DNA of 64,000 nt from Heptranchias perlo. Its lineage: Eukaryota. The position numbers and the translations under genes are program-made. Below, piece after piece: positions 1,376 through 47,103 of the stretch (its first letter is position 1; each line of letters starts with the position of its first letter). The stretch is taken from the NCBI RefSeq assembly GCF_035084215.1, contig NC_090336.1, positions 36,766,001 through 36,830,000 on the forward strand, written 5' to 3'. Below the pieces are notes generated by a model, which was given only the letters and a program-made list of their open reading frames with translations, was not told where the DNA came from and did no database searches.

Positions 1376-1831
1376 TTGTAAACAATTTTACAACACCAAG
1401 TTATAGTCCAGCAATTTTATTTTAAATTCACAAGCTTTCGGAGATTTTCTCCTTCCTCAGGCAAATGTTTCAAGATCTCCTTGAAGCCTACGCATTTATA
1501 CATATTGAACAATAATACATGGTGTTTACAGACTGCCCCTGCAACTGCCTGTTGCCAAGGCAATCACCGTGTTCAGACAGAGAGGTGTTACCTGCAGAAC
1601 CTCCGAATACACATTCAACAAAAAAACAAACAGGGAAAAAAAAACAGAGAAAAAAAAAACACAGAGAGAGGCAGAAACATCCGGAAGGCAGAGAGAGCCA
1701 GCAAATGACCCATTATATTAAAAACAGATAACATTTGTTCGCTGGTGGGGTAACGTGTAGCGTGACATGAACCCAAGATCCCGGTTGAGGCCGTCCTCAT
1801 GGGTGCGGAACTTGGCTATCAATTTCCAAGT
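1376..1831 (-). mobile_element. Penelope-like element, 5'-truncated copy (end of GIY-YIG ORF plus 3' pLTR region)
   Basis: Reverse complement of ~38597-39038 with few changes; flanked by atatttatgt (1366-1375 and 1833-1842). Confidence 0.92.
1426..1466 (-). ncRNA. Minimal type I hammerhead ribozyme motif in Penelope pLTR
   Basis: Minus strand ATTTGC-CTGAGGA-A-GGAGA-AAA-TCTCC-GAAA-GC-TT-GTGAAT. Confidence 0.7.
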
Positions 1832-1944
1832 AATATTTATGTAGCATTTCTCACATGGAACAATACTGCAGAGCATTTTGCAAGGGGGGGCAGGTGGACA
1901 CTAAGCAGGAATAAAATGAACTGAGAGGGAAAAGCTGAAGGCAC

Positions 1945-2250
1945 ATAAGAACAAAAGAAGGAGAAATAGGCCATACGGTCCTTCGAGCCTGCTCCACCAT
2001 TCAATAAGATCATGGGTGATCTTCTACCTCAACTCCACTTTCCCGCCCGATCCCCATATCCCTTGATTCCCTTAGTATCCAAATATCCATTGATCTCAGC
2101 CTTGAATATAGGAACATAGGAACAGGAGTAGGCCATTCAGCCCCTCGTGCCTGCTCCGCCATTTGATAAGATCATGGCTGATCTGAATATACTCAACGAC
2201 TGAGCATCCACAGCCCTCTGGGATAGAGAATTCCAAAGAATTCCACAGTC
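1945..2250 (-). mobile_element. CR1-type 3' end fragment with a nested second CR1-tail insertion (2111-2183)
   Basis: cataagaac/ataggaac tail repeats and ggccattcagccc...gatcatggctgatct; nested piece flanked by tgaatata (2103-2110, 2184-2191). Confidence 0.75.
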
Positions 2251-2869
2251 AAAGGGATACGTTTTAAGGAAATTTTTGAAAGCAGGTTAAGAGGTAACAA
2301 GGCACAGTGATCTTGGACTAGACTTCCAGAGAAAAAGAGCATAGCGTCTGAAAGATCACCTACAATGGTGGAGTGGAAGGAGCAGGAAAGAAGCAGTGCT
2401 CCAGAGACAAAAGAATAGAATGTGCTCACTTGTAAGAATGATTGATTCAAGTCTGTAGTATTTACATCCTAAACTGAAACAGTGCTGCAGATTCAATGGG
2501 AAGACTGCATGATGTAATTGCTGCCCAAATATCACTAACATAGCTAATTCATAGAATCTGCAAAATTCCCAGGTGAAAAACAGTCGAATAACCATAACCT
2601 AATCACAATGCATAAACTTGTCATGGATTAATAACATCTAATATAAAACAACTTGCATTTATGTAACATCTGTAGCATAGAAAAATCCAAAATCATAGGA
2701 TATAGGCGTGATGAAAAGAGTCATTGAGCCAGGAAGTAAGAGGTTAAACAGGTGACCGAAGTCAGGGTCAAAGAGAAGGGTTTTGAGGAGGTTCTTTGAA
2801 AGGAGAGAAAGGTGCAAAGGCGTGGGGGGATGCATTGGAGGCCATAGTCAGAGGAAAGAAGTGTTTAGG

Positions 2870-3830
2870 ATGAGATATTTATCGATCTCAGTCTTGAAAA
2901 TTTCAAATGACCTAGCAACCACAGCCCAAGAGGTCCAAACTTCCACTACCCTTCATGTAAACAAGTGCGTCCTCATTTCACTCCTAAATTTCTTCGCTCT
3001 AATTTTAAGATTATGACCCCTTATTCTGGATTCCCCCACCAGACAAAATAGTTTCTCCATATCTAACCGACTGAATCTCAATCATTTTAAACACCTCGAT
3101 TATAATCACCCCCTCAGCATTCCAATCTCAAGGGAATAAAGCCAAGTTTATGTAACCTGGCCTCATAAATTAACCCTTTAAGCTCCAGTATAGGTGAATC
3201 TGCACTATATATGGCCCTCTGCAACCAATATATCCTTCCTGAGGTGTGGTGTCCAAAATTGAGCAGTACTCCAGATGGGGTCTGACCAAAGCTCTGAACA
3301 ACTGATGCTTCACTTTCTCCCTTTTGTATTCTTGCCCCCTTGAGATACAGGCCAACATTCCATTAGCCTTTTTGATTACTTTTTGTACCTGTCTACTAGC
3401 TTTTAGTAATTTTGGGTACATGGACACCCAAATCTCTTTGCTCCTCCACAGTTCCTACTTTCTCACCATTAAGAAAATATTTTGCTTTTTCTTTCCGGGA
3501 TCCAAAGTGGATGACCTCTCACTTCCCCACATTGAACTTCATCTGCTACAGTTTTGCCCACTCACTTAGTCTGTCTACGTCCCTCTGCCCCCATTTGCAC
3601 AACTTACTATGCCTCCTAACTTAGTGTCATCTGCAAACTTGGATATACAACTCTCTACACCTTCATCATTGATACATACGGTGAAAAGCAAATCACTGGA
3701 GACCACCACTTGTCACATCCTGCCAATCAGAGTACTTTCCCTTGATTCCTACTTTCCGTTTCCTACCGCTCAACCAATTACCAACCCATGTAATAAGGTT
3801 ACCTGCGATTCTGCGCACTTTCATTTTTGC
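2870..3830 (-). mobile_element. Degenerate CR1 LINE, RT C-terminal part
   Basis: ORF 3170-3427 QVQKVIKKANGMLACISRG...LVRPHLEYC; KFADDTKL motif near 3620-3640. Confidence 0.85.
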
Positions 3831-3839
3831 TAACAAAAG

Positions 3840-5460: not shown

Positions 5461-6154
5461 CCAGTCCCCTAATCCTCACCAAGTCTTGTACATTTAGACC
5501 TGCGCAACCTTTTAAACACTATAACGTTAAACCTGTCATTCCTAAAAAATGTCACAATATCACAGCAATAGCATTTATTTAAGAGTTGTTAATTTGCCTC
5601 TTCCAATTTTCTCTCCTTACCTCTTTTCTTCTGAGAGCACTCTGTGATGTTGGCATACAGTTTCAACTGCAGGAGCTATCATTGCTGAGCAATGTTCTGT
5701 CCTTACCTGGTCTCTATACATGCACAATTCCAACAGAGATTTCCAATAGCAGTCAAGATTTTATCCATTACTAGCTTTGGGATCTGATGACAATTGCTAG
5801 GTTGAATAGGTCAGGACCATGCCATGTGTTATATTTTCACAGGAATCCCACACTTAAAATTTTCCTTTTACAAAACAAAAAAAAAAAGTCTATATAGCTG
5901 GTAGGAATAAAACAATTACTTTGTTGTTCCAGGTTTACTTTAAAATTCCTTTACCAAATTTGCTCGATTTCATCAGTGTACAATTTGTGTGTATTAGCAG
6001 CCATGCCTTTTCATGCAAGCAAATGGTTGTGCAGGGTCAGGGATTTCCTCTGAGTGCCCAACAATGCCAGGTTTAAATCCTTGAGGGGCTTTTTTTTAAA
6101 AAAATAGGTTTTTCTAATTTTTTGAAATAAAATGTAAGAGCCGGAAGGTTAGTC

Positions 6155-8784: not shown

Positions 8785-8849
8785 GACGAGGATTAACAAA
8801 GGGGACAGAATTAAAATGTTTTAAAACTTTTACTTTTAGTTCAAATTGT

Positions 8850-11800
8850 GTTTAAGTGCTTTTTTTAGTTGCATTGGGTTACACGGTGTGCGGATATTAC
8901 ACAGTGTGCTGAGAGTTCGGTAAGTGTGGGAGTTTGGTGAAGTGGGGGAAGGAGGTGCTGCTTTGCCTTGCTTTTCCATACTTTTCCTGCAGAGCGGTAG
9001 TGGACCTGAGAGTAGAAGACTGAGATTGTGGAATAAAAGCAGCAGCAGACCTGCACCAAGAGACAACTACTGTGCGACATCACAGGGACTTTACTCCTGG
9101 ACCTAAGATAAATAAGAAGCAAAAAGTAATCCAAGTGGGACGTCACCAAGGAAGAGGTAAGTGATTGGCTGGTGAGTATTTTCCTGCTGAATTTGTCTAA
9201 GGTTAGAGTTTGTGGATTCTCGGGTCTCTGTTGTGTAGTGGGGGACTGCTGTTCAGCAAGGGCCCTTGAGTATACCTTTTAATTGAAGTGAAATTGGTTG
9301 GATTCATTTAATTTGAATTAATTAGTTAAAGGGTAAGTCATGTCAGGACAGCCCAGCCCGTGTTATGCTCCTCCTGCTCCATGTGGGAAATCAGGGACCC
9401 TTCCGGTGTCCCTGACGACCATGTGTGCGGGAAATGTATCCAGCTGCAGCTACTGACAAACCGCATTGCGGCACTGGAGCTGTGGATGGATTCATTAAGG
9501 AGCATTCGCGATGCTGAGAACGTCATGGATAGCACGTTTAGTGAGATGGTCACACCGCAGGTAAAGGTTGTCCAGGCAGGAAGTAATTGGGTGACCACCA
9601 GGCAGAGTAAGAGGAGCAGGCAGGCAGTGCAGGGGTTCCCTGTGGCCGTCCCCCTCTCAAACAAATATACCGCTTTGGATATTGTTGAGGGGGATGACTT
9701 ATCAGGGGAAGGCAGCAGCAGCCAACTTCCTGGCACCAGGGGTAGCTCTGCTGCACAGGCTGGGAGGAAAAAGAGTGGAAGAGCTATAGTGGTAGGGGAT
9801 TCTATCGTAAGGGGAACAGACAGGCGTTTCTGTGGCCGTAAACGTGACTCCAGGATGGTTTGATGCCTCCCTGGTGCCAGGGTCATGGATGTCACTGAGC
9901 GGCTACAGGGCATTCTCAAGGGGGAGGGTGAGCAGGCAGAGGTCGTGATCCACATTGGGACCAACGACATAGGTAGGAAGGGAGATGAGGTCCTGCATCA
10001 AGAATTTAGGGAGCTAGGTAGCAGATTAAAGAGCAGGACCTCAAAGGTTGTAATCTCTGGATTACTCCCAGTACCACGGGCTAGTGAGTATAGAAATAGG
10101 AGGATAGAACAGATGAATGCGTGGCTAAAGAGTTGGTGCAGGAGGGAGGGTTTCAGTTTCCTGGATCACTGGGCCTGCTTCTGGGGAAGGTGGGACTTGT
10201 ACAAGTCGGACGGGTTGCACCTGAACCAGAGCGGGACAAATATCCTTGCGGGGAGGTTTGCGAGCACTGTTGGGGGGGGTTTAAACTAACTTGGCAGGGG
10301 GATGGGATACAGAGTGGAGCTACAATAGGGGGTGATGTGCAGCCAAATATAGAGAAAAAAACAAGTCAGCTTGGAAGACAGGGCAAATATGTACGGGCAA
10401 GGCTGGATGGCATCTATTTTAATGCAAGGAGTCTTGCGAATAAGGTGGATGAACTGAAGGTGTTGATAAACACATGGGAGTATGATATTGTTGCTGTCAC
10501 AGAGACATGGTTGAGGGAGGGGCAAGACTGGCAGCTCAATATTCCGGGGTACAGAATCTTCAGGTGAGACAGAGGGGGAGGTATAAGAGGAGGGGGGGTC
10601 GCAATATTAATTAAAGAATCAATTACTGCCATAAGGAGGGATGATATATTAGCAGGTTCCTCTAATGAGGCCATATGGGTGGAGCTTAAAAACAAAAAGG
10701 GGGCAAGCACTTTGATGGGAGTGTACGATAGGCCCCCAAACAGTCAGGGGGAGATAGAGGAACAGATCTGTCGGCAAATCTCAGAAAATTGTGCAAATAA
10801 TAGGGTAATAATAGTGGGGGATTTCAACTTCCCCAATATTAACTGGGATACTCAGAGTGTAAAAGGCTTAGAGGGTACAAAATTCTTAACGTGCATCCAG
10901 GAGAGCTTTTTGAGCCAGCATGTAGAAAGTCCTACAAGAGAGGGGGCGGTACTGGACCTAATTCTAGGGAATGTGGCCGGCCAAGTGGAAGAAGTGCTAG
11001 TAGGTGAGCACTTTGGTGACAGTGACCATAATTCGGTGAGATTTACGGTGGTCATGGAAAAGGACAGGGAGGGGCCGGAAATAAAGGTTCTAAATTGGGG
11101 GAAGGCCGATTTTAATAGGATAAGGCAGGATCTGGCCAAAATGGACTGGGATCAGCTGCTTGTAGGAAAATCTGCATCGGAGCAATGGGAGTCTTTCAGA
11201 AGGGAGATTGAGACCATACAATGGCAACATGTTCCCGTAAAGGTCAAGGGTGGTTCCAAGAACTCCAGGGAACCTTGGATGTCAGGGGATATACGAGAAT
11301 GGATTAGGAAAAAAAGGAGGGCTTTTGGCAGATACAAAAGGCTAAAGACGGAGGAAGCCCTAGAGGAGTACAAAAAGTGCAGGGGGATACTTAAAAAAGA
11401 AATTAGGAGATCAAGGAGGGGCCATGAAATAACACTGGCGAGCAAAATAAAGGAAAATCCTAAGATGTTTTATAAGTATATTAAGGGTAAGAGGATAACT
11501 AGGGAAAAAATAGGGCCCATTAGGGACAAAAATGGCAATGTGTGTGTGGAGCCGGCAGATGTAGGAGGGGTTCTAAATTAATTTTTTGCATCTGTTTTCA
11601 CTATGGAGAAGGACGATGTAGACATAGAAATACGGCAGGGGGACTGTGATATACTCGAACATATTAACATCGAGCGGGAGGAGGTATTGGCGGTTTTAGC
11701 AGGCCTAAAAATGGATAAATCCCCAGGCCCGGACGAAATGTATCCCAGGCTACTGTGTGAGGCAAAGGAGGAGATTGCGGGGGCTCTGACACATATATTC

Positions 11801-13292
11801 AGAACCTCTCTGGCCACAGGGGATGTGCCAGAGGACTGGAGAACCGCTAATGTAGTACCATTATTCAAGAAGGGGAGTAGGGAAAAACCGGGGAACTACA
11901 GGCCAGTGAGCCTAACATCAGTGGTAGGAAAATTATTGGAAAAAATTCTGAAGAACAAAATTAGTCTCCACTTGGAGAAGCAAGGATTAAATCAGGGATA
12001 GTCAACATGGCTTTGTCAAGGGAAGATCATGTCTGGCTAATTTGATTGAATTTTTTGAGGGGGTGACTAGGCGTGTGGATGAGGGTAACGCAGTGGATGT
12101 GGTATACATGGATTTCAGTAAGGCCTTCGATAAAGTCCCCCACAGGAGACTGGTCAAGAAGGTACGAGCCCATGGAATCCAGGGTGCCTTGGCACTTTGG
12201 ATACAAAACTGGCTTAGTGGCAGAAGGCAGAGGGTGATGGTCGAAGGTTGTTTTTGTGACTGGAAGCCTGTGGCCAGTGGGGTACCACAGGGATCGGTGC
12301 TGGGTCCCTTGCTGTTTGTGGTCTACATTAACGACTTGGATATGAATGTAAAAGGCATGATCAGTAAGTTCGCTGATGATACAAAAATTGGTAGGGTGGT
12401 AAATAGCGAGGAGGATAGCCTCAGTCTGCAGGACGATATAGATGGGTTGGTCAGATGGGCGGAACAGTGGCAAATGGAATTTAACCCGGAAAAGTGCGAG
12501 GTGATGCACTTTGGAGGGACTAACAAGGCAAGGGAATACACAATGAATGGGAGGACCCTAGGCAAGACAGAGGGTCAGAGGGATCTTGGTGTGCAAGTTC
12601 ACAGATCCCTGAAGGCGGCGGAACAGGTAGATAAGGTGGTAAAGAAGGCATATGGGATACTTGCCTTTATTAGCCGAGGCATAGAATATAAGAGCAAGGA
12701 GGTTATGATGGAGCTGTATAAAACACTGGTTAGGCCACAGCTGGAGTACTGTGTGCAGTTCTGGTCGCCACACTACAGGAAGGATGTGATCGCTTTGGAG
12801 AGGGTGCAGAGGAGATTCACCAGGATGTTACCAGGGCTGGAGCGCTTCAGCTATGAAGAGAGACTGGGAAGATTGGGTTTGTTTTCCTTGGAGCAGAGGA
12901 GGCTGAGGGGGGACATGATTGAGGTGTACAAAATTATGAGGGGCACAGATAGGATGGATACGAAGGAGCTTTTTCCCTTCGTTGAGGGTTCTATAACAAG
13001 GGGACACAGATTCAAGGTAAAAGGCGGGAGGTTTGGAGGGGATTTGAGAAAGAACTTTTTCACCCAGAGGGTGGTTGGAGTCTGGAACTCACTGCCTGAA
13101 AGGGTTGTGGAGGCAGGAACCCTCACAACATTCAAGCAGCATTTGGATGAGCACTTGAAATGCCATAGCATACAAGGCTACGGACCAAATGCTGGAATAT
13201 GGGATTAGATTAGACAGGGCTTGATGGCCGGCGCGGACACGATGGGCCGAAGGGCCTCTATCCATGCTATATAACTCTATGACTCTATGACT
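8850..13292 (+). mobile_element. Near full-length CR1 LINE (ORF1 zinc-finger/coiled coil + SGNH esterase; ORF2 APE endonuclease + RT), inactivated
   Basis: ORF1 CSSC...CGKC, VVGDS, HIGTND, DGLH; ORF2 NARSL, TETW, GDFN, SDH, GVPQGSVLGP, FADD; (CTCTATGA)n tail. Stops at 9861, 10565 and 11579, frameshift near 11990. 5' boundary approximate. Confidence 0.96.
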
Positions 13293-14079: not shown

Positions 14080-15080
14080 AAACATCCTTGAAATGGCTGA
14101 CCATTCCATCCTCCTGCGCAGTCTCTTCTCCATGGTCCACCTCCACAAGCCCACTCTTACATGGTTCCATTCCTTCTTGTTCCAAATAGCTCATCTCCAG
14201 CAATGGCTTCTCCTCCTGCCCTCAGTCAGTCAACTCCAATATACCCCATCCTCAGCACCCTGCTTTTCCTCATTTACATGTCCCTTGATGACTGTATACC
14301 ATAGGCATGGACCAGTTTACATATGAAAACAAACATCCAGCTCTACCTCTCCACAACTACCCTTCACTCCATGACCATCTGTATGTTATCAGACCATTTG
14401 TCTGACACGAAGTCATGGTTGAGTCAGAACTTCCTCCAATTGAACAGTGAGAGAAATGAAGTCAACTTGTCCTGCTTCTATAATAGCTCTATCTTTACTC
14501 CTGACTCCATTACCCTCCCAGGTTGCTCAATCATCTGGGATGATGCACAAGCTTGGCCTGAACTGTGCTTCAAACTCCATGTTCTATTTATCACCAAGAC
14601 CACATACTTCCACCTCCATAATGTCCATCTTTTTGCTCACCTCATTTCCACCGCAGCTGAAACCTATATCAACGCTTTCCTTATTTTACCTTCTATTTCA
14701 ACAGCATCTTCACTGTTCTCCCTAGCGCCATCTTACACAAACTCCAACTTTTATCCCAATCGGCCATCACAATCTTGCCAATTTCCATTTTCTCACTGCT
14801 GCCCGCCACCCCCCCCCCCCAACCAAAATCAAATACAGAATCCTTGGCCTCATTTACAAGTCATTCCAAGATCTCTCACCCTACTTCTGCAACCGCTTCC
14901 AGACCTATATCACACTCCATGTCCTTTGGTCCTCCAACTCTGGCCTCCTGAGCACCTCACTTCCCTTTGCCCAACCATCTATAGACAGCATTAAGCTGTC
15001 TCGACCATAACCACTAAAACTTACTCCCTAAATCCCATCATCGTACTACTTTTCTTCCTGTTTATAGAAGTCTCCTCAAA
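14080..15080 (+). mobile_element. Degenerate L2 LINE 3' portion
   Basis: QLYLST...LSD.KSWLSQNFLQLN motif; C/T-rich L2 composition. Confidence 0.75.
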
Positions 15081-15084
15081 ACAT

Positions 15085-15560
15085 TTTATAAGATATTAAG
15101 GGGAACGGATAGGGTGGATAGAGAGAAACTATTTCCGCTGGTTGGGGATTCTAGGAGTAGGGGGCACAGTCTAAAAATTAGAGCCAGACCTTTCATGAGT
15201 GAGATTAGAAAACATTTCTACACACAAAGGGTGGTAGAAGTTAGGAACTCTCTTCCGCAAACGGCAATTGATACTAGCTCAACTGCTAAATTTAAATCTG
15301 AGATAGATAGCTTTTTGGCAATCAAAGGTATTAAGGGATCTGGGCCAAAGGCGGGTATATGGAGTTAGATCTGTGATCTAACTCCATAATGGAAATGAGG
15401 TGAGCAAAAAGATGGACATTATGGAGGTGGAAGTATGTGGTCTTGGTGATAAATGGAACATGGAGTTTGAAGCACAGTTCAGGCCAAGCTTGTGCATCAT
15501 CCCAGATGATTGAGCAGGCACGAGGGGCTGAATGGCCTACTCCTGTTCCTATGTTCCTAT
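15085..15560 (+). mobile_element. CR1 3' fragment whose 3' UTR contains a templated insertion (15372-15516)
   Basis: DREKLFPLVGDSRSRGHSLKI...; tail ggctgaatggcctactcctgttcctatgttcctat. Confidence 0.88.
15390..15516 (-). repeat. 127-bp inverted duplicate of 14524-14650
   Basis: Reverse complement matches the source with one mismatch seen (gttctattt vs gttccattt). Confidence 0.93.
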
Positions 15561-24395: not shown

Positions 24396-25128
24396 ATGTG
24401 GGGGGGAAGTTTTGCACCTATCTGATTTTTTTTCCCCCTATTTTAAACATCTTTGCTATTAAATTAATGACAAAATATTAGTAAACATGAGCATTTAAGG
24501 GGCTTGTAAATTTCCAAAATGTTTGTTTGAACCCATGATTGGTCAGAGATCCGCGTTCTGTTAGCTATTGATCAAAATATTTGAACAATTGGCCCCCACA
24601 ATCGGATTCCTCCATACCACATGGAAATTCATAGATTTCAAAAGAGAGGGGAGGCAGATGACAAGGCTGATCTTCATGTGCCTCACTGCCGAATCAGTGA
24701 TGTCAATTCCTAGTACGGGATCATGAGAAGAATCAGAACTAAATTAAGTGTTATTTATCATGCACTGCTAACAACGATCAATTGGTTTAGATTGCACTAT
24801 GGATTTTACGTTGCTCATTAAAACATGGTTATCAACTAATTTATCAACTACTTAAGATAAATTCCAGCTGTTTTAAGGATAATTGACAAAATTAGCTGTG
24901 TGAATACTTCAAGCAGGGCTGGGCACCAATAGTGTATTCAAAATACAAGTAGGGAGCATTTATATGACTATGGATGAATGTAATTGTTGCATACGCATAA
25001 CTATGTACTACGCTATCAATTATACACCAATTGAATCCTGATAATGGCAAAATTTGTTTGCCAAGAAATATTGGACTGGGATTGTGCTGTAGATGATAAA
25101 TGTTGCAGTTGCAGTTTTAATAATTCAG

Positions 25129-26021
25129 TTGTAAACAATTTTACAACACCAAGTGATAGTCCAGCAATTTTATTTTAAATTCACAAGCTTTCGGAGGCTT
25201 CCTCCTTCGTCAGGTGAAAATGTGAAAATGAAATCCTCGAAATGAAATCGCATTTATAATTCACAGAACAATGCTTGGTGAGTACAGACAGTTTTTTCAA
25301 CTGCCCGTTGCCAAGGCAATCAGTGTGCAGACAGACAGGTGTTACCTGCCAGGTCTCACAGAATATACAAATCACCAAAAAAAAAACAACAAACAAAAAA
25401 AACAGAGATAGAGAGGTGGAAACATAGAAAAGACAGCAACTGACCCGTTATATTAAAAACAGATAACATTTGTTCGCTGGTGGGGTAACGTGTAGCGTGA
25501 CATGAACCCAAGATCCCGGTTGAGGCCGTCCTCATGGGTGCGGAACTTGGCTATCAATTTAGCCAAGTTCCGCACCCATGAGGACGGCCTCAACCGGGAT
25601 CTTGGGTTCATGTCACGCTACACGTTACCCCACCAGCGAACAAATGTTATCTGTTTTTAATATAACCGGTCAGTTGCTGTCTTTTCTATGTTTCTACCTC
25701 TCTATCTCTGTTTTTTTTGTTTGTTGTTTTTTTTTTGGTGATTTGTATATTCTGTGAGACCTGGCAGGTAACACCTGTCTGTCTGCACACTGATTGCCTT
25801 GGCAACGGGCAGTTGAAAAAACTGTCTGTACTCACCAAGCATTGTTCTGTGAATTATAAATGCGATTTCATTTCGAGGATTTCATTTTCACATTTTCACC
25901 TGACGAAGGAGGAAGCCTCCGAAAGCTTGTGAATTTAAAATAAAATTGCTGGACTATCACTTGGTGTTGTAAAATTGTTTACAATTGTCAACCCCAGTCC
26001 ATCACCGGCATCTCCACATCA
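25129..26021. mobile_element. Penelope-like element as a fold-back palindrome (425-bp arms, 6-nt loop, 37-nt unpaired tail)
   Basis: Arms 25129-25553 and 25560-25984 are reverse complements (2 mismatches seen); TSD ttaataattcag (25117-25128, 26022-26033); centre matches the GIY-YIG ORF end of the 37390 copy. Confidence 0.95.
25895..25933 (+). ncRNA. Minimal type I hammerhead ribozyme motif (mirror copy at 25180-25218, minus strand)
   Basis: TTCAC-CTGACGA-A-GGAGG-AAG-CCTCC-GAAA-GC-TT-GTGAA: stem I TTCAC/GTGAA, core CUGANGA and GAAA, stem II GGAGG/CCTCC, palindromic AGCT in place of stem III. Confidence 0.78.
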
Positions 26022-27410
26022 TTAATAATTCAGGTGAGACTCTTCATTCAGATCAATTTGATTTTGGCTCTCCGCTTTCCATCATAATCTTGGAGCAATA
26101 AATCAGACCCCTGCCAGGCAACTTAGACTATTTTGAAGTCTAGGTGGCAGCAGCGTGAAAACTGCCTTAAATGTAGGAAAATCACGATCACCATTGATTT
26201 TGATGGGGAGGGCGGATTTATCCTAATTAACTTCTAACTGTTTTCAGTGAGGGCAACGGTAGAGAAGTCCCAGGAAAAAATGGAGTGGCATAATTAATGG
26301 CGTAAGTCACTTACTCCGTAATTTCCTCGTTCTTTTGTGCCGTTCAAGGATCCCTACAATGTAAATGCGCCATTTTAATGACGCAAGTCCCCAGAAAAAT
26401 CTGGGCCACAGTTTGCAGCAAGTACAAATAATTCTTATCCCTGGATCACAACTGCAAGGACAAATTACATAAAAAGTAGTTTCTGGATCCTGAGGAACTT
26501 GGTCTGCTTATGGGAATTGCTGTGAAACTGTTGAAAGGGAAAATAGTATTTTAAAAACCTAAATCATAACACATTGCATAGACTCTACATTTCATATGCT
26601 AACAGCGTACTGCAATTGGGAATGATCGCTAGACCTGGCTCATTCAACCACCATAAGGGCAGATCACATAAAAAATACATCATGAGGAATTAGGTCTGCT
26701 TACAGAACATATGTGAAACAGTTGGAAAAGGATTGTAGCTATTTGAAATACAATTAAAACCTCTACTATAATGCAATATAACCACACACAATAATTTTAG
26801 GTGAAACTGGATTTGAGGTAAAAGGTTATTGTTCATTCCACTGCACCAGAGGCCCCCAGTGCCTTTCATTTTTAGAAATGTGCACTTAATGTTCTGAGAA
26901 GATAAAATAAGGCTGCTGTTCAGTCCAAACCAGCTCCTCTCCCTTAGAAACTGATAACCGCCTGCCATCCACTATCACTTGGAAGTGTTCATCACAACAA
27001 ATTGCTACTAGATACTTGAAGTATGACCTCCAGCAGGTCGCAACATCCCACATTGATTGCAAAACATGCCTAACATAGGCTGAACTCCATTAGTATATTA
27101 ACTAGCTAGCAAGCAACTTTCCACATGTAACAATAGAAAGTATTGAAATGTCTTATGTTTTTAATACACTATTTTTATTACTAGTACTATATGAACAGAG
27201 CGCAAAAAGAGTAATGTTAAATTATCTACTTTGTTCAACTCTCAAAGAAAACACTTACAATCATCACTCATGAGAATCAGGGTTTTCATCATCTGTGTAG
27301 CCTCCAAGGATTCAATAAGTGAATGAATTAAATAATTAAACACAAGCACTTTCAGAAAATTATATATTTTTAAAATGCAGAAAGATAACAATCATAATAG
27401 ACAAATTTAC

Positions 27411-31633: not shown

Positions 31634-32097
31634 CAGAGATTTACCTCAATTGAGGTGAGGAACCCTTTAAAGGCCGCTAATGCATCCTGCCTCAATTGGA
31701 AAGCATGAGGTTTCCTTGTCTGATTGCAGAACCTTTCAAAGCATTTGTATCCAACCCAATAACATCAGGAGCTTCTTCTGGATTGTACCACAGGTGGAGT
31801 TCACAAACCAGCAGCTACTGTCTCATCATTATTGGTCATCGTTCTTCATTCCCACAATGCTTATGTAATTTTTTTCTGGAGAAGCGGATGGAACTCTAAG
31901 CTCCCATTTCTCAGCTCTTCTTTTGTATCAGGCAACATTTATTTCTTTTTTTATTTTGTCTTCAAAGTGAGGGTTGCAATTTTTTTTAACCCAAATCATA
32001 AACTTGCCACTGTTTCAAGAATTTGTATTCAGCGGTATTTAAAGGGTTTCATACCTCAACTGAGGTAAATCTCTGGTTACTGGACTAGTAATCCAGA

Positions 32098-33158
32098 GAA
32101 ATTCTGCTGCTGATGACTCACAGCGCCTCATGAATGCCCAGTTTTGAGCTGCTAGATCTGTTCTGAATCTATCCCATTTAGCACGGTTGTAGTGCAACAC
32201 AACACGTTGGATAGTATCCTCAGTGTGAAGACGGGACTTCGTCTCCACAAGGACTATGCGGTGGTCACTTCTACCAATACTGTCATGGACAGATGCATCT
32301 ACGACAGGTAGATTGGTGAGGACAAGGTCAAGTCGGTTTTTCCCCTCGTGTTGGTTCGCTCACCACCTGCCGCAGGCCTAGTCTGGCAGCTATGTCCTTC
32401 AGGACTCGGTTAGCTCGGTCAGTACTGGTGCTACCGAGCCACTCTTGGTGATGGACATTGAAGTCCCCCACCCAGAGTACATTTTGTGCCCTTGCTACCT
32501 TCAGTGCTTCCTCCAAGCGGTGCTCAACATGGAGGAGAACTGATTCATCAGCTGAGGGAGGACAGTAGGTGGTAATCAGCAGGAGGTTTCCTTGCCCATG
32601 TTTGACCTGAAACCATGAGATTTCATGGGGTCCGGAGTCAACGTTGAGAACTCCCAGGGCCACTCCCTCCTGACTGTATACCACTGTACTGCCACCTCTG
32701 GTAGGACAGGACATACCCAGGGATGGTGATGGAAGAGTCTGGGACGTTGGCTGAAAGGTATGAATCTGTGAGTATGCCTTTGTCAGGTCCGGTGCCTCAT
32801 GGTCCGATGCCGGGTGGTCCATTCGGTTTTATTCTTATTGTGACTTTCTGTAGCGAGATTGTACAACTGCGTGGCTTGCTCGGCCATTTCAGAGGGCAAT
32901 TAAGAATGAACGACATTGCTGTGGGTCTGGAGTCACATATTGTCCAGACCGGGTAAGGACGGCAGTTTTCCTTCCCTAATGAACATTAGTGAACCACATG
33001 GGTTTTTACGACAATCCGATTTCAGATTTAATTTAATTTAATTAATTGAATTTAAATTCACCAGCTGCTGGGGTGAGATTTGAACTCATGACTCCGGATT
33101 ATTAGTCCAGGCCTCTAGATTACTCGTCCAGTAACATAACCACTGTGTTAACATACCC
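32098..33158 (-). mobile_element. tRNA-headed single-ORF LINE, 5' part only (head + APE endonuclease)
   Basis: LLITTYCPPSADES...VLWVGDFNVHHQEWLGS...EPTRG; head taacacagtgg...gagttcaaatc. Confidence 0.88.
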
Positions 33159-33164
33159 TTTATA

Positions 33165-35449: not shown

Positions 35450-37386
35450 AGAGCGGTTAGGAGAAATTTCTTTACGTAGAGTTGTTGGAGCATGGGTTAC
35501 TTTGCAGTAGACAGTGGTAGAGGGACAGACCATTTCATGTTTTGTAGGAAACATGGATAAACCTTTGAAGCAAAGAAAGGGCAGGGCCATGGGGAGAGCA
35601 GGGTAGTGGGATTCGTTCTGAATTGGTCAAGAGCCGTCACAGCATGATGGGCCAAATGGTCTCCTTCTGTGCTGTAAATGTCTATAGTTCTAAGGCATTG
35701 AAAAAGAAAGAAACAAATGAAAAGCTGAAAAGCTAGAAGTTATATAAAATTCAGTTAATCAAGTAATTGAAAGGCTGAAAAGACACTAGAAAGGTGGATG
35801 AAGAAAACACAAATTAGGAATTATAGACCTACTAGTAAAATATTCATAGTGGGAAAAACAATCAAAAGCTTTTTATGGAATGCATCTAAGTAGTACAGAA
35901 GCCTTGGGCATAGCTTAGCAAAAATCTACCTGTATCCTTTGAGAAGGTAACTAAAATAATAAATGAAAGATATCCAGGTGTGATAATTTACTTGACAGAG
36001 AACATTGATAAAAAAATCCACAAGTGAAGTTGTGATAAGGTGAAATATAAATGCAATTATTTTTATTGAAGAGGATCAATGTCCATGGAATTAATCTTGA
36101 ATAAACCAGGTGGATTAAAAACCATCCTTGCAATAGTTAACAGGAGATGACAAAAATTGAACAATTTGGTGTCATGGGCCACTGAAGTTAGGAATCCATT
36201 CTGTGCCTCCTACTGTTTGAATTATTCAATATGGAAGTGCATCCATGATGGCATCAAATAGCACAGTGAATAAGAGGAACAGAAACATCCAAGAGAGTGG
36301 GCGGGAAAGTGGGTTGAAGGAGGGGGAGAGAGAGAAAAAAAAGAGAAAAAGAAAGAGAGAAAGGAATCCCAAAGCGCTGCACAGCCAATGAATTACTTTG
36401 CAGTGTAGTCACTTGTTTTTTAGGCAAATGTGGGAGCCAAATTGCACATAATAAGGTCCCACAAACAGGAATAAGATGTATGCCTGTTTAATCTGTTTCT
36501 CAGTAGTGTTGGTTGATACATGAATATTGGCCAAGGCAGTTTTGAATTCGAAAAGATTATTATACTTAGTTCATCCATACAAAGAACTCCCATGCTGTTC
36601 TTCAAAAAAAAGCCAAACGATCTATTATGTCCACCGAAACAGGCAGAGAGGGCCTCAGTTTAATATCTCATTCAAAAGATAACACCTCAAGTGTCAGCCT
36701 AGATTATGTACTCATGTCATGGGAATGGGGCTTGAACCGACAACCTTCTGGCTCAGCTGTGTGTCACCACTGAACCAAGCTGACATTGATGAGTTAAGGA
36801 ATTTAATGTCAGCAAAAAATAAGGTAATGTATACAGAAACACAAAACAAAAGGTACACAATGAATGGCTATGCATTAGCAAAGATGGAAAGTATTACTGG
36901 GGTGTATCTTGAAAATATTCAACTGTAAGCCAAAACAAGATAATTTAACTCTGCATAATGCACTGGCCACATTTAGAGCCCTGTGTACAAATTTGGTTCT
37001 GCATTCAAACGGACTTTGATGCACATATGAAAGTTCAGAGAAAAGTGCACAAAAGGAAATTCACATATTGTATCTCATTTGATTGGAAAACAAAAAGATT
37101 GTAGAAAAGAAGATTGAGAGGATAGGTTCCGGGACTTTATAATGGAAGGTTTGAATGTAAATCTAAATAAAGTTATTTAACTTAAATTGTGATTGTAGAA
37201 TCAGAGAAAGCCATTGTAAAATTAACAAGGCTCAAGTAGGACTAAAATTACCATTCCTTACTTACTCAGAAGCAGTGGACATGTAAAACAGAGGGTTGTT
37301 AAGGTATGGAATGCCCTACCGGAAGCAATGGTGTAATCGCGTTTAAAAGGTAACTGGATAAATATTTAAATATGAAGAAATTATGA
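35450..37386 (+). mobile_element. Old CR1 fragments (last one resumes at 39076-39195 after the Penelope insertion), with a minus-strand DeuSINE at ~36365-36785
   Basis: aattatagacct (NYRP), cacatttagagccctgtgtacaaatttgg, tggaatgccctacc; SINE head ggggcttgaacc...accactgaaccaagctgaca. Confidence 0.7.
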
Positions 37387-37555
37387 ATTTTGTAAACAAT
37401 TTTACAACACCAAGTTATAGTCCAGCAATTTTATTTTAAATTCACAAGCTTTCGGAGATTTCCTCCTTCCTCAGGCAAATGTTTCAAGAGCTCCTTGAAG
37501 CCTACGCATTTATACATATAGAACAATACATGGTGTTACATATAGAACAATACAT

Positions 37556-38704
37556 GCACAAGACCTCCAACCAACACTATACACCAGATACATCGACGAC
37601 ATTTTCTTTCTATGGACCCACGGCAAGGAATCACTAAAGAGACTACACGATAACATCAACAAGTTCCATCCCACCATCAAGCTCACCATGGACTACTCCT
37701 CAGAATCAGTTTCTTTCTTGGACACACGAATCTCCATCAAAGACGGGCACCTCAGCACCTCACTCTACCGCAAGCCCACGGACAACCTCACGATGCTCCA
37801 CTTTTCCAGCTTCCACCCTAACCACGTCAAAGAGGCCATCCCCTATGGACAGGCCCTGCGAATACACAGGGTCTGCTCAGACGAGGAGGAACGCGATGGA
37901 CACCTACAGACGCTGAAAGACGCCCTAGTAAGAACGGGATATGACGCTCGACTCATCGATCGACAGTTCCGACGGGCCACAGCAAAAAATCGCATAGACC
38001 TCCTCAGGAGACTAACACGGGACGCAACCAACAGAGTACCCTTTGTCGTCCAGTACTTCCCCGGAGCGGAGAAACTACGCCATGTTCTCCGCAGCCTTCA
38101 ACATGTCATCAATGAGGACAAACACCTCGCTATGGCCATCCCCACACCTCCACTACTCGCCTTTAAACAGCCACCCAACCTCAAACAGACCATCGTTCGC
38201 AGCAAACTACCTAGCTTTCAAGAGAACAGCGTCCACGACGCCACACAACCCTGCCACGGTAACCTCTGCAAGACATGCCAGATCATCGACACAGATACCA
38301 CCATCACACGAGAGGACACCACCCACCAGGTGCATGGTTCATACTCCTGTGTCTCGGCCAACGTTGTCTACCTCATACGTTGCAGGAAAGGATGCCCCAG
38401 AGCATGGTACATTGGCGAGACCATGCAGACGCTGCGACAACGGATGAACGGACACCGCGCAACAATCGCCAAACAGGAGGGTTCCCTCCCAGTCGGGGAA
38501 CACTTCAGCAGTCATGGACATTCATCCACCGACCTTCGGGTAAGCGTACTCCAAGGCGGCCTTCGAGACACACGACAACGCAAAATCGTCGAGCAGAAAT
38601 TGATAGCCAAGTTCCGCACCCATGAGGACGGCCTCAACCGGGATCTTGGGTTCATGTCACGCTACACGTTACCCCACCAGCGAACAAATGTTATCTGTTT
38701 TTAA
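37556..38704 (+). CDS. Penelope-type polyprotein, C-terminal part (RT motif C and thumb + GIY-YIG endonuclease); open but 5'-truncated
   Basis: Frame is open from 37556: YTRYIDDIF (YIDD 37589-37600), SVSFLD, LYRKPT, SSFHP, C..LCKTC, NVVYLIRC...WYIGET...LRQRMNGH, VGEHF, E...I......GLN. Confidence 0.93.
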   Translation, partial: AQDLQPTLYTRYIDDIFFLWTHGKESLKRLHDNINKFHPTIKLTMDYSSESVSFLDTRISIKDGHLSTSLYRKPTDNLTMLHFSSFHPNHVKEAIPYGQALRIHRVCSDEEERDGHLQTLKDALVRTGYDARLIDRQFRRATAKNRIDLLRRLTRDATNRVPFVVQYFPGAEKLRHVLRSLQHVINEDKHLAMAIPTPPLLAFKQPPNLKQTIVRSKLPSFQENSVHDATQPCHGNLCKTCQIIDTDTTITREDTTHQVHGSYSCVSANVVYLIRCRKGCPRAWYIGETMQTLRQRMNGHRATIAKQEGSLPVGEHFSSHGHSSTDLRVSVLQGGLRDTRQRKIVEQKLIAKFRTHEDGLNRDLGFMSRYTLPHQRTNVICF

Positions 38705-38947
38705 TATAATGGGTCATTTGCTGGCTCTCTCTGCCTTCCGGATGTTTCTGCCTCTCTCTGTTTTTTTTCTCTGTTTTTTTTCCCTGTTTGTTTTTTTGTT
38801 GAATGTGTATTCGGGGGTTCTGCAGATGACACCTCTCTGTCTGAACACGGTGATTGCCTTGGCAACGGGCAGTTGCAGGGACAGTCTGTAAACACCATGT
38901 ATTGTTCTATATGTATAAATGCGTAGGCTTCAAGGAGCTCTTGAAAC

Positions 38948-38988
38948 ATTTGCCTGAGGAAGGAGGAAATCTCCGAAAGCTTGTGAAT
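38948..38988 (+). ncRNA. Minimal type I hammerhead ribozyme motif (mirror copy at 37440-37480, minus strand)
   Basis: ATTTGC-CTGAGGA-A-GGAGG-AAA-TCTCC-GAAA-GC-TT-GTGAAT. Confidence 0.72.
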
Positions 38989-41146
38989 TTAAAATAAAAT
39001 TGCTGGACTATAACTTGGTGTTGTAAAATTGTTTACAATTGTCAACCCCAGTCCATCACCGGCATCTCCACATCAAGAAATTATGAGTATGGGGAAAGGA
39101 CAGGGGAACGGGACTAAATGAATCGCTCGTTCAGAGAGCCAACACAGGCACAGTGGGCTGAATAGCCTCCTTATGTAGTATACAATGATACGATTTTACT
39201 AATTTTACAATAGCATCCCCCAACAGGCTTGCTTTAAAGTCCTCTTACTTCTTAAACTCACTACTCTCTGGGTACTGATGAAGAAAACTTAATAGCACTC
39301 AGTCGGAAAAAAACTATACGAAAAACTTGTACTGTCTGACACAACCTTGTTCAACAAAAAGCTTAATAAAGCTCATCGATACAAGACACATAATGTGAAT
39401 TTTTCATTGCTCCCTCACTGTTACATAACTCACAGAGAAGCACTGGCTTGTATAACTCCCAGTCTTATAAAATGGCCATGCTGTATAATGGATATTGATC
39501 TTTCAGCATAGTGCAGCAAAAAGTAGGATGGAGATGTCCTTTTAATATTTTTAGGTAAATAAAGTGGTATAATGGAAAAAATTGGTTTTGGTAAACAACC
39601 TCCATTATATAATTTGTAAATAAATGGCACTGTACTTGAACTCTGTCCTCTGAGCTTTGCAGTTTAAGCTCCAACTACTAGTATGGGTAACATACTACAT
39701 GTGTTTCATCTCACTGGCTCCCCATCATGTGATGTGGTTATAACTAAGAGATCAAAAATCTTTCTCTTTCTAAGTTTACTTGTACTGGTTAAATTATTTG
39801 AATATTAATTTTTTTTTTACTAAGTCACATTTCTGACTACATTCTTTCATGTTGTAATCTTTATGACTGCTGTTTATGCAAAATGTTCTGTTTTTTCATG
39901 CAATATAAGGACAACAATAGAGCTTGCCATACTATTTGGTCATTAGAATGGAATTCAATACATGCACTTTATCTTAATAAATTCATAATTGTGGTGTCTA
40001 ACCAGAAGAACCTTGAACTTTATATGTTTAGCAACTGATGTCCATAAGACTGATTGTCCAGCAAGAGAAGGAAATGAGAGCTATCTATAAAGGTTACCAG
40101 GACTTCAAAATTCAGGGGTAACTATGCAAGAGGAAAATCAGTCTGCTGATAACAGTACAGCAATATTATAATTCAAAATTGCCTTTTATGATTTAGTATA
40201 GAGATAACAAACTAAAGGCCTTAACCTCAGATTTACATTTGCAAAACACAGGCTTTTGCGTAACATTGTGTTTATAATTACCATCTGAAGAAATATTCTG
40301 GAATGACAATTTAACCCAGCCTTGGCTTGAACTTGTTTTGATGCAATTTTATGAAGTATTAAGTCAGCTGCCAAAAATTTTTTCTGTAGAAATGGACTAT
40401 AGTAAAGTTTTTGGGGCTCTATTAACATTGATTAATTAAAAATCTATTACAGTTGGTAACTAATTGTATGTAATGGCTGCAACCTTGGTCACAGTGCAAG
40501 CCTCTTGGAATTGTACTGCATTCTTCTCGACTGAAAGTGCATCACTCCCCAGTAGCAGACATGAATATTTTAGAGAAGAATGAGAAAATTATTTTTAAAG
40601 TTCTGATCTAAACAAAATACGTTTTATTTATCCAAGACAAGCTGCAGCTAGTAGCGCATCAAATAATTTCACAGAGTTATTTGCATTGCTAGTATACATA
40701 CTTTAGTGTATGGAAATTCTGTACATGGGATAGCGCACAAAGATTAACCAATGCCTAAAGTGTACTGTGCTCAAAGTTCTCTATTGGTACACTAACAATC
40801 ATCTAAATGAGAATGGACCACGTCACAATAACTTATATATTGCCTGCCCACTGAACAAGTTCACTTGGCGATGTTTTGAAAGGAAATAACAAATTACATC
40901 GAGATGAGCCAAAGCTGACACCAGATTACGCAATAACAGGCATTGAAAATCAACAGAGCTATTTGTGCCAGTGTTGTACCCCAGAGGTGGCAACGATCCT
41001 CTTCAACACTGACCTCACCATAAATCACAGAGTCAGCTCATTTGCATATCCACTGGCGTTGGTCTGCCCAATTCCCATGTAACATGGGAGTACTGCAGTG
41101 GGGGAACGGAAATTGCAGATACAGGCCTTTAAAAAGCTGAGTCATA

Positions 41147-41750: not shown

Positions 41751-41795
41751 TATAAGTAATATGAAGTAAATAGAAAATTCTCTAAATGCACTTAC

Positions 41796-44288: not shown

Positions 44289-44332
44289 AGGGGAAAACAA
44301 TACATGAAAGAGGGGAAAACAATACATGAAAG
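44289..44332 (+). repeat. 22-bp perfect tandem duplication
   Basis: aggggaaaacaatacatgaaag twice. Confidence 0.9.
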
Positions 44333-45342
44333 AGGAGAAAAAATTTCAAGCACTGTACTTCCAAGTACTTCAGTGGGCAATATATTGAACAGTTAATTTC
44401 CAAATATCTGTTACATATTGCTCATTCTACAATACGATTGTCAGTTTGTAGCTGTTATTCAAACACATACAAAAGAGTAAAGACAATGGAAAGATATTTT
44501 AAACAATGCCCTGATACTGTTTAAGAAATTAATCACACACCACACTTTCTCACAATTGCAAACTAATTTATGTAAATATACTTGTGGTAGTGCAAAACTA
44601 AAAAGGTAGAAAATAAGTTACCCATATGTGCAGCCATTATAAAGCATATTTTTCAAACATATCCCTCATATTGAAATTTTTTAAATTATCAATTTTGTGC
44701 TTAAATCAAAATTATGCCACAAAAATAGATAGACCAATATACACAATAATGGACGACAAGGAGTGGAGGTAGGGTTTGAAAATGTTTAATTTGTTAACGT
44801 GGTCATTGTAGATTTTTTTTAAAACAGAAGTACATTTGTTTTTTGTGCACAAGAACAAGCCTGGAAATGATCTCCCATCACCTTGTCAGAATGAGCTGAA
44901 TACTTTTTATCAATTTCATGCCGTGCTCATGGCAGTCCCCAGCCATCACTCCTTCAGTTCTTTGTGTAAGTACCCAATCAGACTTTTTTTTAATTTTCCC
45001 TGATCTTCAGTGGTCTAAGTCACTCCCCTGGATCCACCTGGTGCGGCCCACTTGCACCCATCTTGACGCGAGTACACCTCATCTCACCAGCCTCCTGACC
45101 TATGCTAGGTCCCATCCGAGCCAGTGCAAACTCCTTAAGTCACTCGCCTCGTGAGGGGCTAGTGGAGATTCCACCCCTTACAAAGCCAACCGGAAAAATC
45201 CCAGAAACTGCAGGGATCCAGTTGTGCCATTTTCCAGCGGGTTCCACTAGACTCCCGCAGGAATTATGGCAAATGTGCTGTAGAACTCCCAAGAAAATTG
45301 AGGACCCCAAGTCCTGAAAGTTAGTGTGTGTTCATGAAACAG

Positions 45343-45486
45343 TTGTAATCAATTTTACAACACCAAGTTATAGTCCTATCCTTTCCACTGTGAGCCGGCA
45401 GTTTGTGGTGTCGATGGTAGTCATGATGTGGAGATGCCGGTGATGGACTGGGGTTGACAATTGTAATCAATTTTACAACACCAACA
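45343..45486 (-). mobile_element. Miniature Penelope-like insertion: two pLTR end pieces in tandem around the probable ORF start
   Basis: TSD ttcatgaaacag (45331-45342, 45487-45498); both pieces carry the private variant ttgtaaTcaatt. Confidence 0.9.
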
Positions 45487-45678
45487 TTCATGAAACAGGT
45501 GTTTGAAACTAGGAAGTGAACAAAAGAGATGCTCTGAAGGTGAAATACATTAAAGTTAGTAGGGCAGGATTTTGTAATTTAAAGAAATATTACAGAAACT
45601 AGCCAAAATTAATATTTCAATGATTGCAGTCCATTCCATTTTCATTTTCAGACATCAGTTTGAATTCATCTACCAGAT

Positions 45679-46135
45679 GTCAGCAGTAGCTCAGTGGTAG
45701 CACTCTCAGCTCTGAGGCAGAGGTTGTGGATTCAAGTCCCAGTCCAGGACTTCAGCACATAGTTTAGGCTGACTCTTTGATGCAGCATCGAGGGAGTGCT
45801 GTAGTGTTCGGAGGTCCCACCTTTTGAATCAGACATTAAATCAAGGCTCCATCTTCCCTCTCAAATGGACAGACAAGATATCATGGCATTATTCAAAGAA
45901 GAGCAGGGAAGTTCCCCTGGTGTCCTGACCAATATCTATCCTTCAACCAACAAAAACAGATTAGTTGGTCAATTATCCCACTGTTGTTTGTGGGACCACG
46001 ATGTATGCAATTTGGCTGAACCATTTCCCTTCATTATAACAGTGACCACACTTTGAAAATACTTCATTGGCTGTGAAACATTTTGGGACGTCATGAAGTC
46101 GTGAAAGGTGCTATATAAATGCAAGTTCTTCCTTT
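45679..46135 (+). mobile_element. Full-length tRNA-derived DeuSINE (SacSINE1-like) with L2-type tail
   Basis: A box tagctcagtgg, B box ggattcaagtcc, Deu-like ggtgtcctgaccaa...tgtttgtgggacc...tggctg, tail gaaaggtgctatataaatgcaagtt. Partial copies at ~46690-46915, 54150-54365, 54385-54570. Confidence 0.8.
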
Positions 46136-46936
46136 CACCAATGAACAAGTCACACAGGCAGTGAAGGAGTTTTATCTCGATCGGCTATATATTATTACCT
46201 GCTTTTAATTACCATCCGAGGATTGCTCGTTCTGTAGTTTTCCCAATTAGGTGTATATCTCAAACTGATAAAACAAAGAGCTATAACCATCTCTGGTTTC
46301 AACACTTGTCCCGTACAAACAAAAGCTTTTAGCCATTATTTCGCAGCTGGGAAAACATCAAAAAGGGAGCATTTTGCAACTCTTCTGATAACAGTATATG
46401 TTGGTGTCTTGCATAATTCTGGTAAGTGAAATGTATTTTCAGGTCACATTTACAGGAGACAGACTTTGGACAGCAAAATTAAATGTCAAACATAAATACT
46501 ACATTTAAACATTTGGCAATTTGCACACAACTTTCCCTTTCAAAATACTTAATGCAACAACCAAACAAATATCAAGCTAATATCACAACTCTCATGCACC
46601 AAATTGGAAGCAAGGTTCTCCTCTAAGTGGGAGTGAAAATTCAATGGTGATCACGACAGATGATGCTTCCACTGACCTCTTAAACTGGGAACTTCTTTCA
46701 TTGTCCTGGCCAACATTCCTGACTCAATCAATACACCATAAACAGATTAACCTTTCATTTATCTCACTGCTGTTTATGGGATACTGCTGTGCACAAAATA
46801 CTTACTGCATTTGCCCATGTAACAGCATCACTGCATTTTAAAGCAATTAATTCTATGTCAAGTGCTTTGAGGTGTTTGAGATGATATAAGGCCCTTTATA
46901 AAAGCAAGTCCTTTTGCTCTTAAATTATCTTATCTA

Positions 46937-47103
46937 TGATGTGGAGATGCCGGTGATGGACTGGGGTTGACAATTGTAAACAATTTTACAACACCAAGTT
47001 ATAGTCCAACAAATTTATTTTAAATTCCACAAGCTTTCGGAGGCTTGTGGAATTTAAAATAAATTTGTTGGACTATAACTTGGTGTTGTAAAATTGTTTA
47101 CAA
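46937..47103. mobile_element. Miniature Penelope-like hairpin (37-nt tail + 61-bp perfect arms, 8-nt loop)
   Basis: Arms 46974-47034 and 47043-47103; TSD ttatcttatcta (46925-46936, 47104-47115). Confidence 0.93.

What the first reader, a model, noticed from the sequence alone, without database searches (positions are those of the whole stretch)
1376..47103. Five insertions of one Penelope-like family share fixed, asymmetric ends and 10-12-bp TSDs
Seen: copies at 1376, 25129, 37390, 45343 and 46937 all have one end at exactly the same base (TTGTAAACAATTTTACAA, itself a small hairpin). The three fold-back copies end on the other side 37 nt further out (...CATCTCCACATCA). Each copy has an AT-rich direct repeat: 12 bp exact in three, 10-11 bp in two. 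Private variants occur in both arms of a given copy (aagtGatag at 25 kb, ttgtaaTca at 45 kb, aacaaatttatt/ccac at 47 kb), so both arms came from one template. Established: PLEs form tandem or inverted pLTRs. Inference: a stereotyped integration route with two fixed start points and a ~12-nt staggered GIY-YIG cut.
Basis: partly seen in the sequence, partly recalled or inferred. Interest (0 to 1): 0.7.

Follow-up and report, generated by a model that had tools for sequence, protein, structure and literature searches.

The report
Shark Penelope element primes both strands
These five inserts are copies of a known kind of jumping gene (a Penelope-like element), and across this genome its mirror-image copies almost always have one long end and one short end inside a 12-letter duplication of a loosely mirror-symmetric landing site, which likely means that both cut DNA strands start copying the element's RNA.

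Summary
Real, and a known kind. The five copies belong to a young Neptune/Nematis-type Penelope-like element (43,803 exact arms genome-wide; intact 902-aa RT+GIY-YIG ORF elsewhere). The inverted arm, the one-sided 30-40-bp tail and the two RT start sites are published (PMC3846280, PMC8557442, PMC11167929). Genome sampling sharpens them into rules. 151 of 159 head-to-head insertions have exactly one tail end and one tail-less end, and none has two tails. Repeat lengths fit a fixed 12-bp duplication. 54 of 56 testable empty sites hold one copy. Targets carry a loose dyad motif on both sides. Starts are not one base: they slide a few nt to pair with the target's 3' end. Best model: a 12-nt staggered cut, both strands prime RT 37 nt apart, probably on one RNA, and the cDNAs join head to head. 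I did not find the fixed stagger or dyad in five paper searches; this scan noted both before on this genome.

The parts
1366..1375 (+). Copy 1 left target repeat (10 bp exact; right copy 1833-1842)
1376..1826 (-). Copy 1: single antisense arm from the tail-less start (unit 3045) back to unit 2601; 6-7 extra bases before the right repeat
25117..25128 (+). Copy 2 left TSD, 12 bp (right copy 26022-26033)
25129..25559 (-). Copy 2 tail-less arm (about 431 nt), second subfamily; 2 differences from the other arm in 425 columns
   Evidence: (as L128)
25560..26021 (+). Copy 2 tailed arm; hammerhead core 25900-25928, tail 25985-26021
37375..37386 (+). Copy 3 left TSD, 12 bp (right copy 39075-39086), followed by 3 non-templated bases; the site is a CR1-type 3' end whose paralogues hold one copy
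37390..37537 (-). Copy 3 tail-less arm, 148 nt, identical to the other arm
37538..37554 (.). Copy 3 central joint, 17 extra nt re-copied from the arm
37555..39075 (+). Copy 3 tailed arm: 5'-truncated ORF (residues 520-902: YIDD, thumb, CX4CxxC linker, GIY-YIG; stop at 38704), TATA-like box 38914-38923, hammerhead core 38954-38982, tail-less start at 39038, tail 39039-39075
45331..45342 (+). Copy 4 left TSD, 12 bp (right copy 45487-45498)
45343..45376 (-). Copy 4 first arm, 34 nt from the tail-less start
45377..45484 (-). Copy 4 second arm, same orientation: ORF nt 1-48, tail, and a re-copy of the first arm's start (template jump on the RNA, inferred)
46925..46936 (+). Copy 5 left TSD, 12 bp nominal (right copy 47104-47115); 16-bp repeat with microhomology
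46937..47042 (-). Copy 5 tailed arm, third subfamily
47043..47103 (+). Copy 5 tail-less arm; the joint lies in hammerhead stem II

Best explanation
These are insertions of a Neptune/Nematis-type Penelope-like retrotransposon whose endonuclease likely nicks both target strands 12 bases apart at a loosely symmetric site, so that both freed 3' ends likely prime reverse transcription of the element's RNA, one at the tail end and one 37 nt upstream, and the two copies are then likely joined head to head. Shown in sequence: one tail per insertion; 12-bp duplication; single-copy empty sites; dyad motif C-n-C-T-G-n-Y | T...12 bp...A | R-n-C-A-G-n-G; 1-4 nt of pairing at both outer ends; either arm may be the longer; centre joints by microhomology or patch. 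Inferred: 12-nt 3' overhangs; a protein dimer; one RNA molecule serving both starts (my odds about 0.6); joining by end-joining repair. Both starts lie in the 5' UTR just before the ATG. RNA beginning about 30 nt after the TATA-like box would give the common 200-250-bp mini palindromes, and read-through RNA from tandem units the long ones. When one priming fails, a solo arm results (copies 1 and 4), often still with the 12-bp TSD.
For: One-tail rule: 151 of 159 pairs are one tail plus one tail-less end, 0 tail/tail; the single tail-less pair is two nested insertions; 7 have an end outside the class limits. 87 of 88 called ends in a sample anchored upstream of both starts fall at one of the two sites. 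Repeat lengths 12/13/14/15/16 = 80/38/12/6/2 against 79.7/38.3/13.8/4.4/1.8 for a fixed 12 plus chance extension (one parameter fitted by hand); 9 of 147 are 10-11 bp. Empty sites: 54 of 56 with paralogues are collinear with one copy; 91 of 147 were untestable. Dyad: both halves match 2 or more of 4 positions in 45 of 79, against at most about 25% if the motif were one-sided (p 1.5e-9); the score collapses when the boundary moves 1 bp. Primer pairing: mean 1.73 and 1.53 nt against permuted 0.66 and 0.57 (p<0.001, n=75 each); the start slides to match the primer's last base (29 of 30 A at the modal tail start, 7 of 8 G two bases earlier). Arm lengths: tail-less longer in 61, tailed longer in 44, within 3 nt in 42 of 147. 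In vitro, PAc nicks and extends both strands from two starts that bound the tail (PMC11167929).
Against: No biochemistry on this element. In PAc no difference in start site between strands was seen, so the strict one-tail rule is not explained by the in vitro data. Arms longer than 150 nt end within 30 nt of each other in 19 of 39 cases (permuted mean 2.6); this fits a shared RNA 5' end but fits fold-back copying equally. Alleles private to one insertion and shared by both arms are few (6 in 17,352 columns against 90 one-arm differences), and 19 cells are discordant at common polymorphisms, so one RNA molecule is not proven. The motif is loose (each position about 47-70%) and was derived from the same 79 sites; the five window targets match it poorly (0-2 of 4 per half). 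9 of the 159 pairs came from a search that required a tail.
Confidence: 0.75

Rival explanations
1. Fold-back (self-priming): one cDNA is primed at the tail end, folds back and copies itself, and the endonuclease trims the second end at the tail-less site.
For: Proposed in print (self-priming, PMC3846280; tail from EN-mediated resolution, PMC8557442). Arms match in length in 118 of 147 and in 19 of 39 long ones; arms share alleles; the tail-less end is a 7-bp hairpin.
Against: In 12 of 147 the tail-less arm is 30 nt or more longer (L082 3001 vs 171 nt; L081 3043 vs 452), so neither arm contains the other. Overall the tail-less arm is longer more often (61 vs 44). The tail-less end shows primer-RNA pairing and slippage like a priming site. 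Solo tail-less arms carry 12-13-bp TSDs (L291, L295, L321).
Confidence: 0.1
2. Both strands prime, but on two separate RNA molecules from the same active source, one per protein subunit.
For: Fits every end, TSD and target feature. 19 discordant cells at common polymorphisms, for example L110 and L115 at the hammerhead N7 base and L175 at two subfamily sites.
Against: It gives no simple reason why the two starts always differ, nor why long arms end together (19 of 39). The rare 25-kb variant is in both arms of only this one of 17 insertions. No insertion among 147 clearly joins two diverged subfamilies over long arms.
Confidence: 0.12
3. The arms arose as separate insertions or by later rearrangement, and gene conversion made them alike; the repeats were there before.
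For: Nested insertions occur (L248, L091); inverted repeats can be homogenised (general knowledge).
Against: One TSD encloses both arms in 150 of 159; empty sites hold one copy in 54 of 56. Most rare alleles are in one arm only (39 vs 13; 90 vs 6), so conversion is not sweeping.
Confidence: 0.03

Closest known systems
Poseidon_Ac (PAc) of Anolis carolinensis, in vitro (Frangieh et al. 2024, PMC11167929; parts 1-2 of 4 read: main text, legends, part of Methods; supplement text searched, figures not seen)
   Same: Both target strands nicked and extended; two internal RT starts bounding the tail; no homology to the target needed; AT-rich cuts; tandem units; hammerhead; predicted dimer.
   Different: PAc is Penelope/Poseidon clade, with starts 111-118 nt into the ORF; here both starts are in the 5' UTR up to the ATG. 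The paper has no TSD, stagger, overhang or palindrome statement and reports no strand difference in start site; here the two ends almost always use different starts.
EN+ PLE insertions with inverted pLTR and tail: Adineta Pen2/Pen2a (Arkhipova et al. 2013, PMC3846280; passages read) and general PLE layout (Craig et al. 2021, PMC8557442; passages read)
   Same: Inverted 5'-truncated copy, 30-40-bp tail at one end, TSD, partial tandems, microhomology joints.
   Different: TSDs there are 8-10 bp or absent in a few copies and the tail is called optional; here the TSD fits a fixed 12 bp and the one-tail rule is near absolute in 159 cases. Those papers explain the shape by self-priming or EN resolution.
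Neptune/Nematis clades of C-terminal EN+ PLEs (features as in PMC8557442)
   Same: RT with DKG and YIDD, CX2-5CxxC linker, GIY-YIG with CCHH and catalytic R, H, E, N; minimal hammerhead (PMC4209133, passages).
   Different: No reference sequences were available to separate Neptune from Nematis by tree; linker-bearing PLEs are described as often targeting microsatellites, whereas this one has a loose dyad motif.
LINE-1 twin priming (recalled, not read)
   Same: Both target ends prime on one RNA and give an inversion.
   Different: L1's second primer anneals internally at variable places and the arms do not overlap; here both arms copy the same RNA stretch from two preferred starts 37 nt apart.

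Membership tests
Penelope-like element, C-terminal EN+ | Single ORF with telomerase-like RT | tested here: met
   902-aa ORF in L097/L081; Pfam RVT_1 E 3e-10; model pLDDT 90, top nine fold matches are TERTs
Penelope-like element, C-terminal EN+ | C-terminal GIY-YIG EN with CCHH motif and catalytic R, H, E, N | tested here: met
   Y792, C796, C800, Y805, G807, R816, H820, H836 in 60 of 60 aligned homologues; E866, N881 in 59 of 60. Pfam GIY-YIG did not score on this protein but is listed for many homologues
Penelope-like element, C-terminal EN+ | DKG motif | tested here: met
   D296-K297-G298, 60 of 60
Penelope-like element, C-terminal EN+ | Tandem or partial-tandem units, pLTR, inverted copy, 30-40-bp tail | tested here: met
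   3081-bp tandem units; 159 inverted pairs with a tail of about 37 nt
Penelope-like element, C-terminal EN+ | Minimal hammerhead in the pLTR | tested here: met
   CUGA-N-GA, stem II, GAAA, palindromic AGCU; stems I and II form in the predicted fold of 3 of 6 subfamily representatives and of window copy 3. Rfam found nothing at gathering score; cleavage untested
Neptune/Nematis clades | CX2-5CxxC motif between RT and EN (absent in Penelope/Poseidon) | tested here: met
   C753-X4-C758-X2-C761, 60 of 60; criterion from PMC8557442
Neptune (as distinct from Nematis) | RT phylogeny with named references | not testable with these tools
   Homologues are unnamed; no Repbase set held
Penelope/Poseidon clade (PAc) | No linker Zn-finger | tested here: not met
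   Linker present; works like PAc but is not a member
Naiad/Chlamys | N-terminal EN | tested here: not met
   EN is C-terminal
MITE / TIR DNA transposon | Equal terminal inverted repeats, fixed internal part, DDE partner | tested here: not met
   Ends differ by about 37 nt, centres vary between copies, arms run into an RT ORF

The most novel reading that the evidence does not exclude
PLE integration is a concerted, two-fold symmetric reaction unlike that of LINEs: a protein dimer reads a dyad target, makes a fixed 12-nt staggered cut, and loads both 3' overhangs onto one RNA at two registers 37 nt apart, so the inverted arm and the one-sided tail are obligatory products of a double TPRT. The 12-bp spacing and the 37-nt offset would be direct rulers of the unsolved PLE ribonucleoprotein.
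Probability: 0.5. Interest if true: 0.7.

Novelty: new member of a known kind. Interest (0 to 1): 0.5.

Why it matters
How PLEs make their inverted arm and tail is a long-open question; only one PLE has been studied in vitro. A young family with over 40,000 arms and intact ORFs turns vague descriptions into exact predictions: a cut offset of 12 nt, a target motif, two starts and a pairing rule. These can be tested directly with the published assay. It also tells annotators that the many 200-250-bp palindromes with 12-bp TSDs in shark genomes are PLE products, not MITEs.

Tried and rejected
Rfam: no family at gathering score. Pfam on the window's ORF fragment: no hit. PDB by sequence: no hit. 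Dimer prediction of residues 1-135, two copies: no verdict, score 0.00, alignment not used; counted neither for nor against. RNA fold of the end region: not better than shuffles (z -0.41), so no claim about a start-site stem-loop. One-sided target motif in random orientation: rejected (no negative correlation between halves, rho -0.12; 45 of 79 match on both). Motif as an artefact of a few repeated targets: rejected (79 clusters from 80 sites); positions -1 and +13 are partly biased by requiring exactly 12 bp and were left out of the score. Link between the better half-site and which end gets the tail: none (p 0.20); offsets of the two starts are uncorrelated. A-to-G editing marks shared by both arms: none among 37 long two-arm insertions. 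MITE reading: rejected. Searches for a fixed 12-bp TSD, palindromic target, twin priming or PLE structure in print found nothing relevant (passages of PMC9977147, PMC12910113, PMC8969392 and bioRxiv 10.64898/2026.07.22.740005 read). [quoted passage not shown] Empty orthologous sites in related species could not be fetched; paralogous repeats were used instead.
Full report
Observation. Copies 2, 3 and 5 are head-to-head pairs of arms; copies 1 and 4 have one orientation, and copy 4 re-copies its own start after jumping to ORF position +48. Each lies in a direct repeat of 10-12 bp (16 with microhomology in copy 5).

The element. Copy 3 carries residues 520-902 of an ORF that is intact elsewhere: 902 aa in 3081-bp tandem units. 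It has an RT whose predicted fold is closest to telomerase, the DKG motif, a CX4CxxC linker and a GIY-YIG domain with CCHH. By the criteria of PMC8557442 this is the Neptune/Nematis type. The nearest named proteins are from sharks (80-96% identity). A 34-mer of the end region occurs 43,803 times, in at least four subfamilies. In unit coordinates a TATA-like box is at 2921, the predicted hammerhead cut after 2989, the tail-less end at 3045 and the tail end at 3082, the A of the next ATG. Only 652 arms run 25 nt or more into the ORF.

What is published. Inverted pLTR, one-sided 30-40-bp tail and short TSD are the standard PLE layout (PMC3846280, PMC8557442, PMC8969392; passages). PAc nicks and extends both target strands and starts RT at two internal sites that bound the tail (PMC11167929, parts 1-2 of 4). 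That paper says nothing on TSD or stagger.

Ends. I held 328 genome loci plus the window: 30 chosen for a perfect tailed end, the rest anchored upstream of both starts or taken as neighbouring DNA. They gave 159 head-to-head pairs: 151 with one tail and one tail-less end, none with two tails, one tail-less pair that is a nested double insertion, and 7 with an end outside the class limits. In the least biased set (90 of the 100 places listed; 88 called), 54 ends are at the tail site, 33 at the tail-less site and 1 between. After removing duplicates and pairs without a repeat of 10 bp or more, 147 remain. Among the 80 with exactly 12 bp, the start is 3045 in 35 and within 3042-3046 in 66; it is 3082 in 35 and within 3079-3085 in 71. 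The spread follows the primer. Target 3' ends pair with the RNA just beyond the start by 1.73 and 1.53 nt on average, against 0.66 and 0.57 when primers are permuted. Off-mode starts are mostly those where the mode would not pair.

TSD and target. Exact repeats of 10 bp or more flank 150 of 159 pairs and 0 of 791 shuffled controls. Lengths 12-16 follow a fixed 12 plus chance extension almost exactly; 9 of 147 are 10-11. Where the target is itself a repeat, paralogues hold one copy in 54 of 56 cases, including window copy 3. Targets are AT-rich inside (71% against 58%) and flanked by a dyad: C at -7, C at -5, T at -4, G at -3, mirrored on the other side. Both halves carry it (45 of 79), and it is lost if the boundary moves one base. 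A duplication made by priming from both 3' ends implies 12-nt 3' overhangs (inference from TPRT geometry).

Arms. The tail-less arm is longer by more than 3 nt in 61, the tailed arm in 44, and 42 are equal; by 30 nt or more, 12 and 17. Where the tail-less arm is longer, each arm has sequence the other lacks, so neither is a copy of the other. Centres show 1-8 nt overlap in 70, blunt joins in 11, 1-20 extra nt in 42, more than 20 in 15 and longer overlap in 9. Arms agree at common polymorphisms (1206 vs 19 cells), so they come from one lineage. Long arms often end together (19 of 39), which favours one RNA but also fits fold-back. Solo arms exist with either start and often keep a 12-13-bp TSD; several 'unpaired' arms have a tiny opposite arm.

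Verdict. The element is a new member of a known kind and its layout is published. The quantitative rules (strict one-tail rule, fixed 12-bp duplication, dyad target, primer-guided slippage) were not found in five paper searches, with older reviews and Repbase unseen. They support double priming from both target strands over fold-back. A dimer and a single RNA remain inferences. The one-tail rule, the 12-bp fit and the dyad were obtained before I looked up earlier notes; those notes report the same on this and other shark genomes and are not independent evidence.

Noticed in passing
G000:C2:21273031-21276302: Nine or more matches 404 bp apart, each holding the tail and ORF start: a tandem array of a short PLE piece, possibly retrozyme-like. 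Not fetched.
   Followed up: no
L118:2560-2740, L040:1568-1613, L088:9447-9508, L240, L131, L192: 15 of 147 two-arm insertions have more than 20 extra nt at the central joint; some look like host DNA, in L088 like the neighbouring satellite.
   Followed up: partly
L095:2444-8724: Two near full-length units joined head to head inside one 12-bp TSD.
   Followed up: no
L060 and L115; L158 and L170; L206 and L284: Independent insertions at the same position of a host repeat, with the same or nearly the same TSD: hot spots.
   Followed up: partly
unit 2955-2977 (window 38948-38970): Hammerhead N7, stem I and stem II vary among subfamilies while the core stays fixed; G-U pairs of stem I become Watson-Crick pairs in other subfamilies.
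   Followed up: partly
window 1826 and 25560: Copies 1 and 2, of different subfamilies, stop within about 20 nt of each other near the ORF's 3' end; copy 1 has a few extra bases resembling the start of a second arm.
   Followed up: no
window 14524-14650 and 15390-15516: 127-nt, 99% inverted repeat of an old LINE-type fragment around a CR1-type 3' piece; unrelated to this family.
   Followed up: partly
window 9330-13270 (+); 32040-33160 and 48490-51570 (-): A near full-length CR1-type LINE with broken ORFs, and two related copies of another LINE (family names recalled).
   Followed up: no
window 30733-31095 (-) and 327-695 (-): Fragments resembling a Harbinger-type transposase and a Myb-like partner (recalled from the translations).
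   Followed up: no
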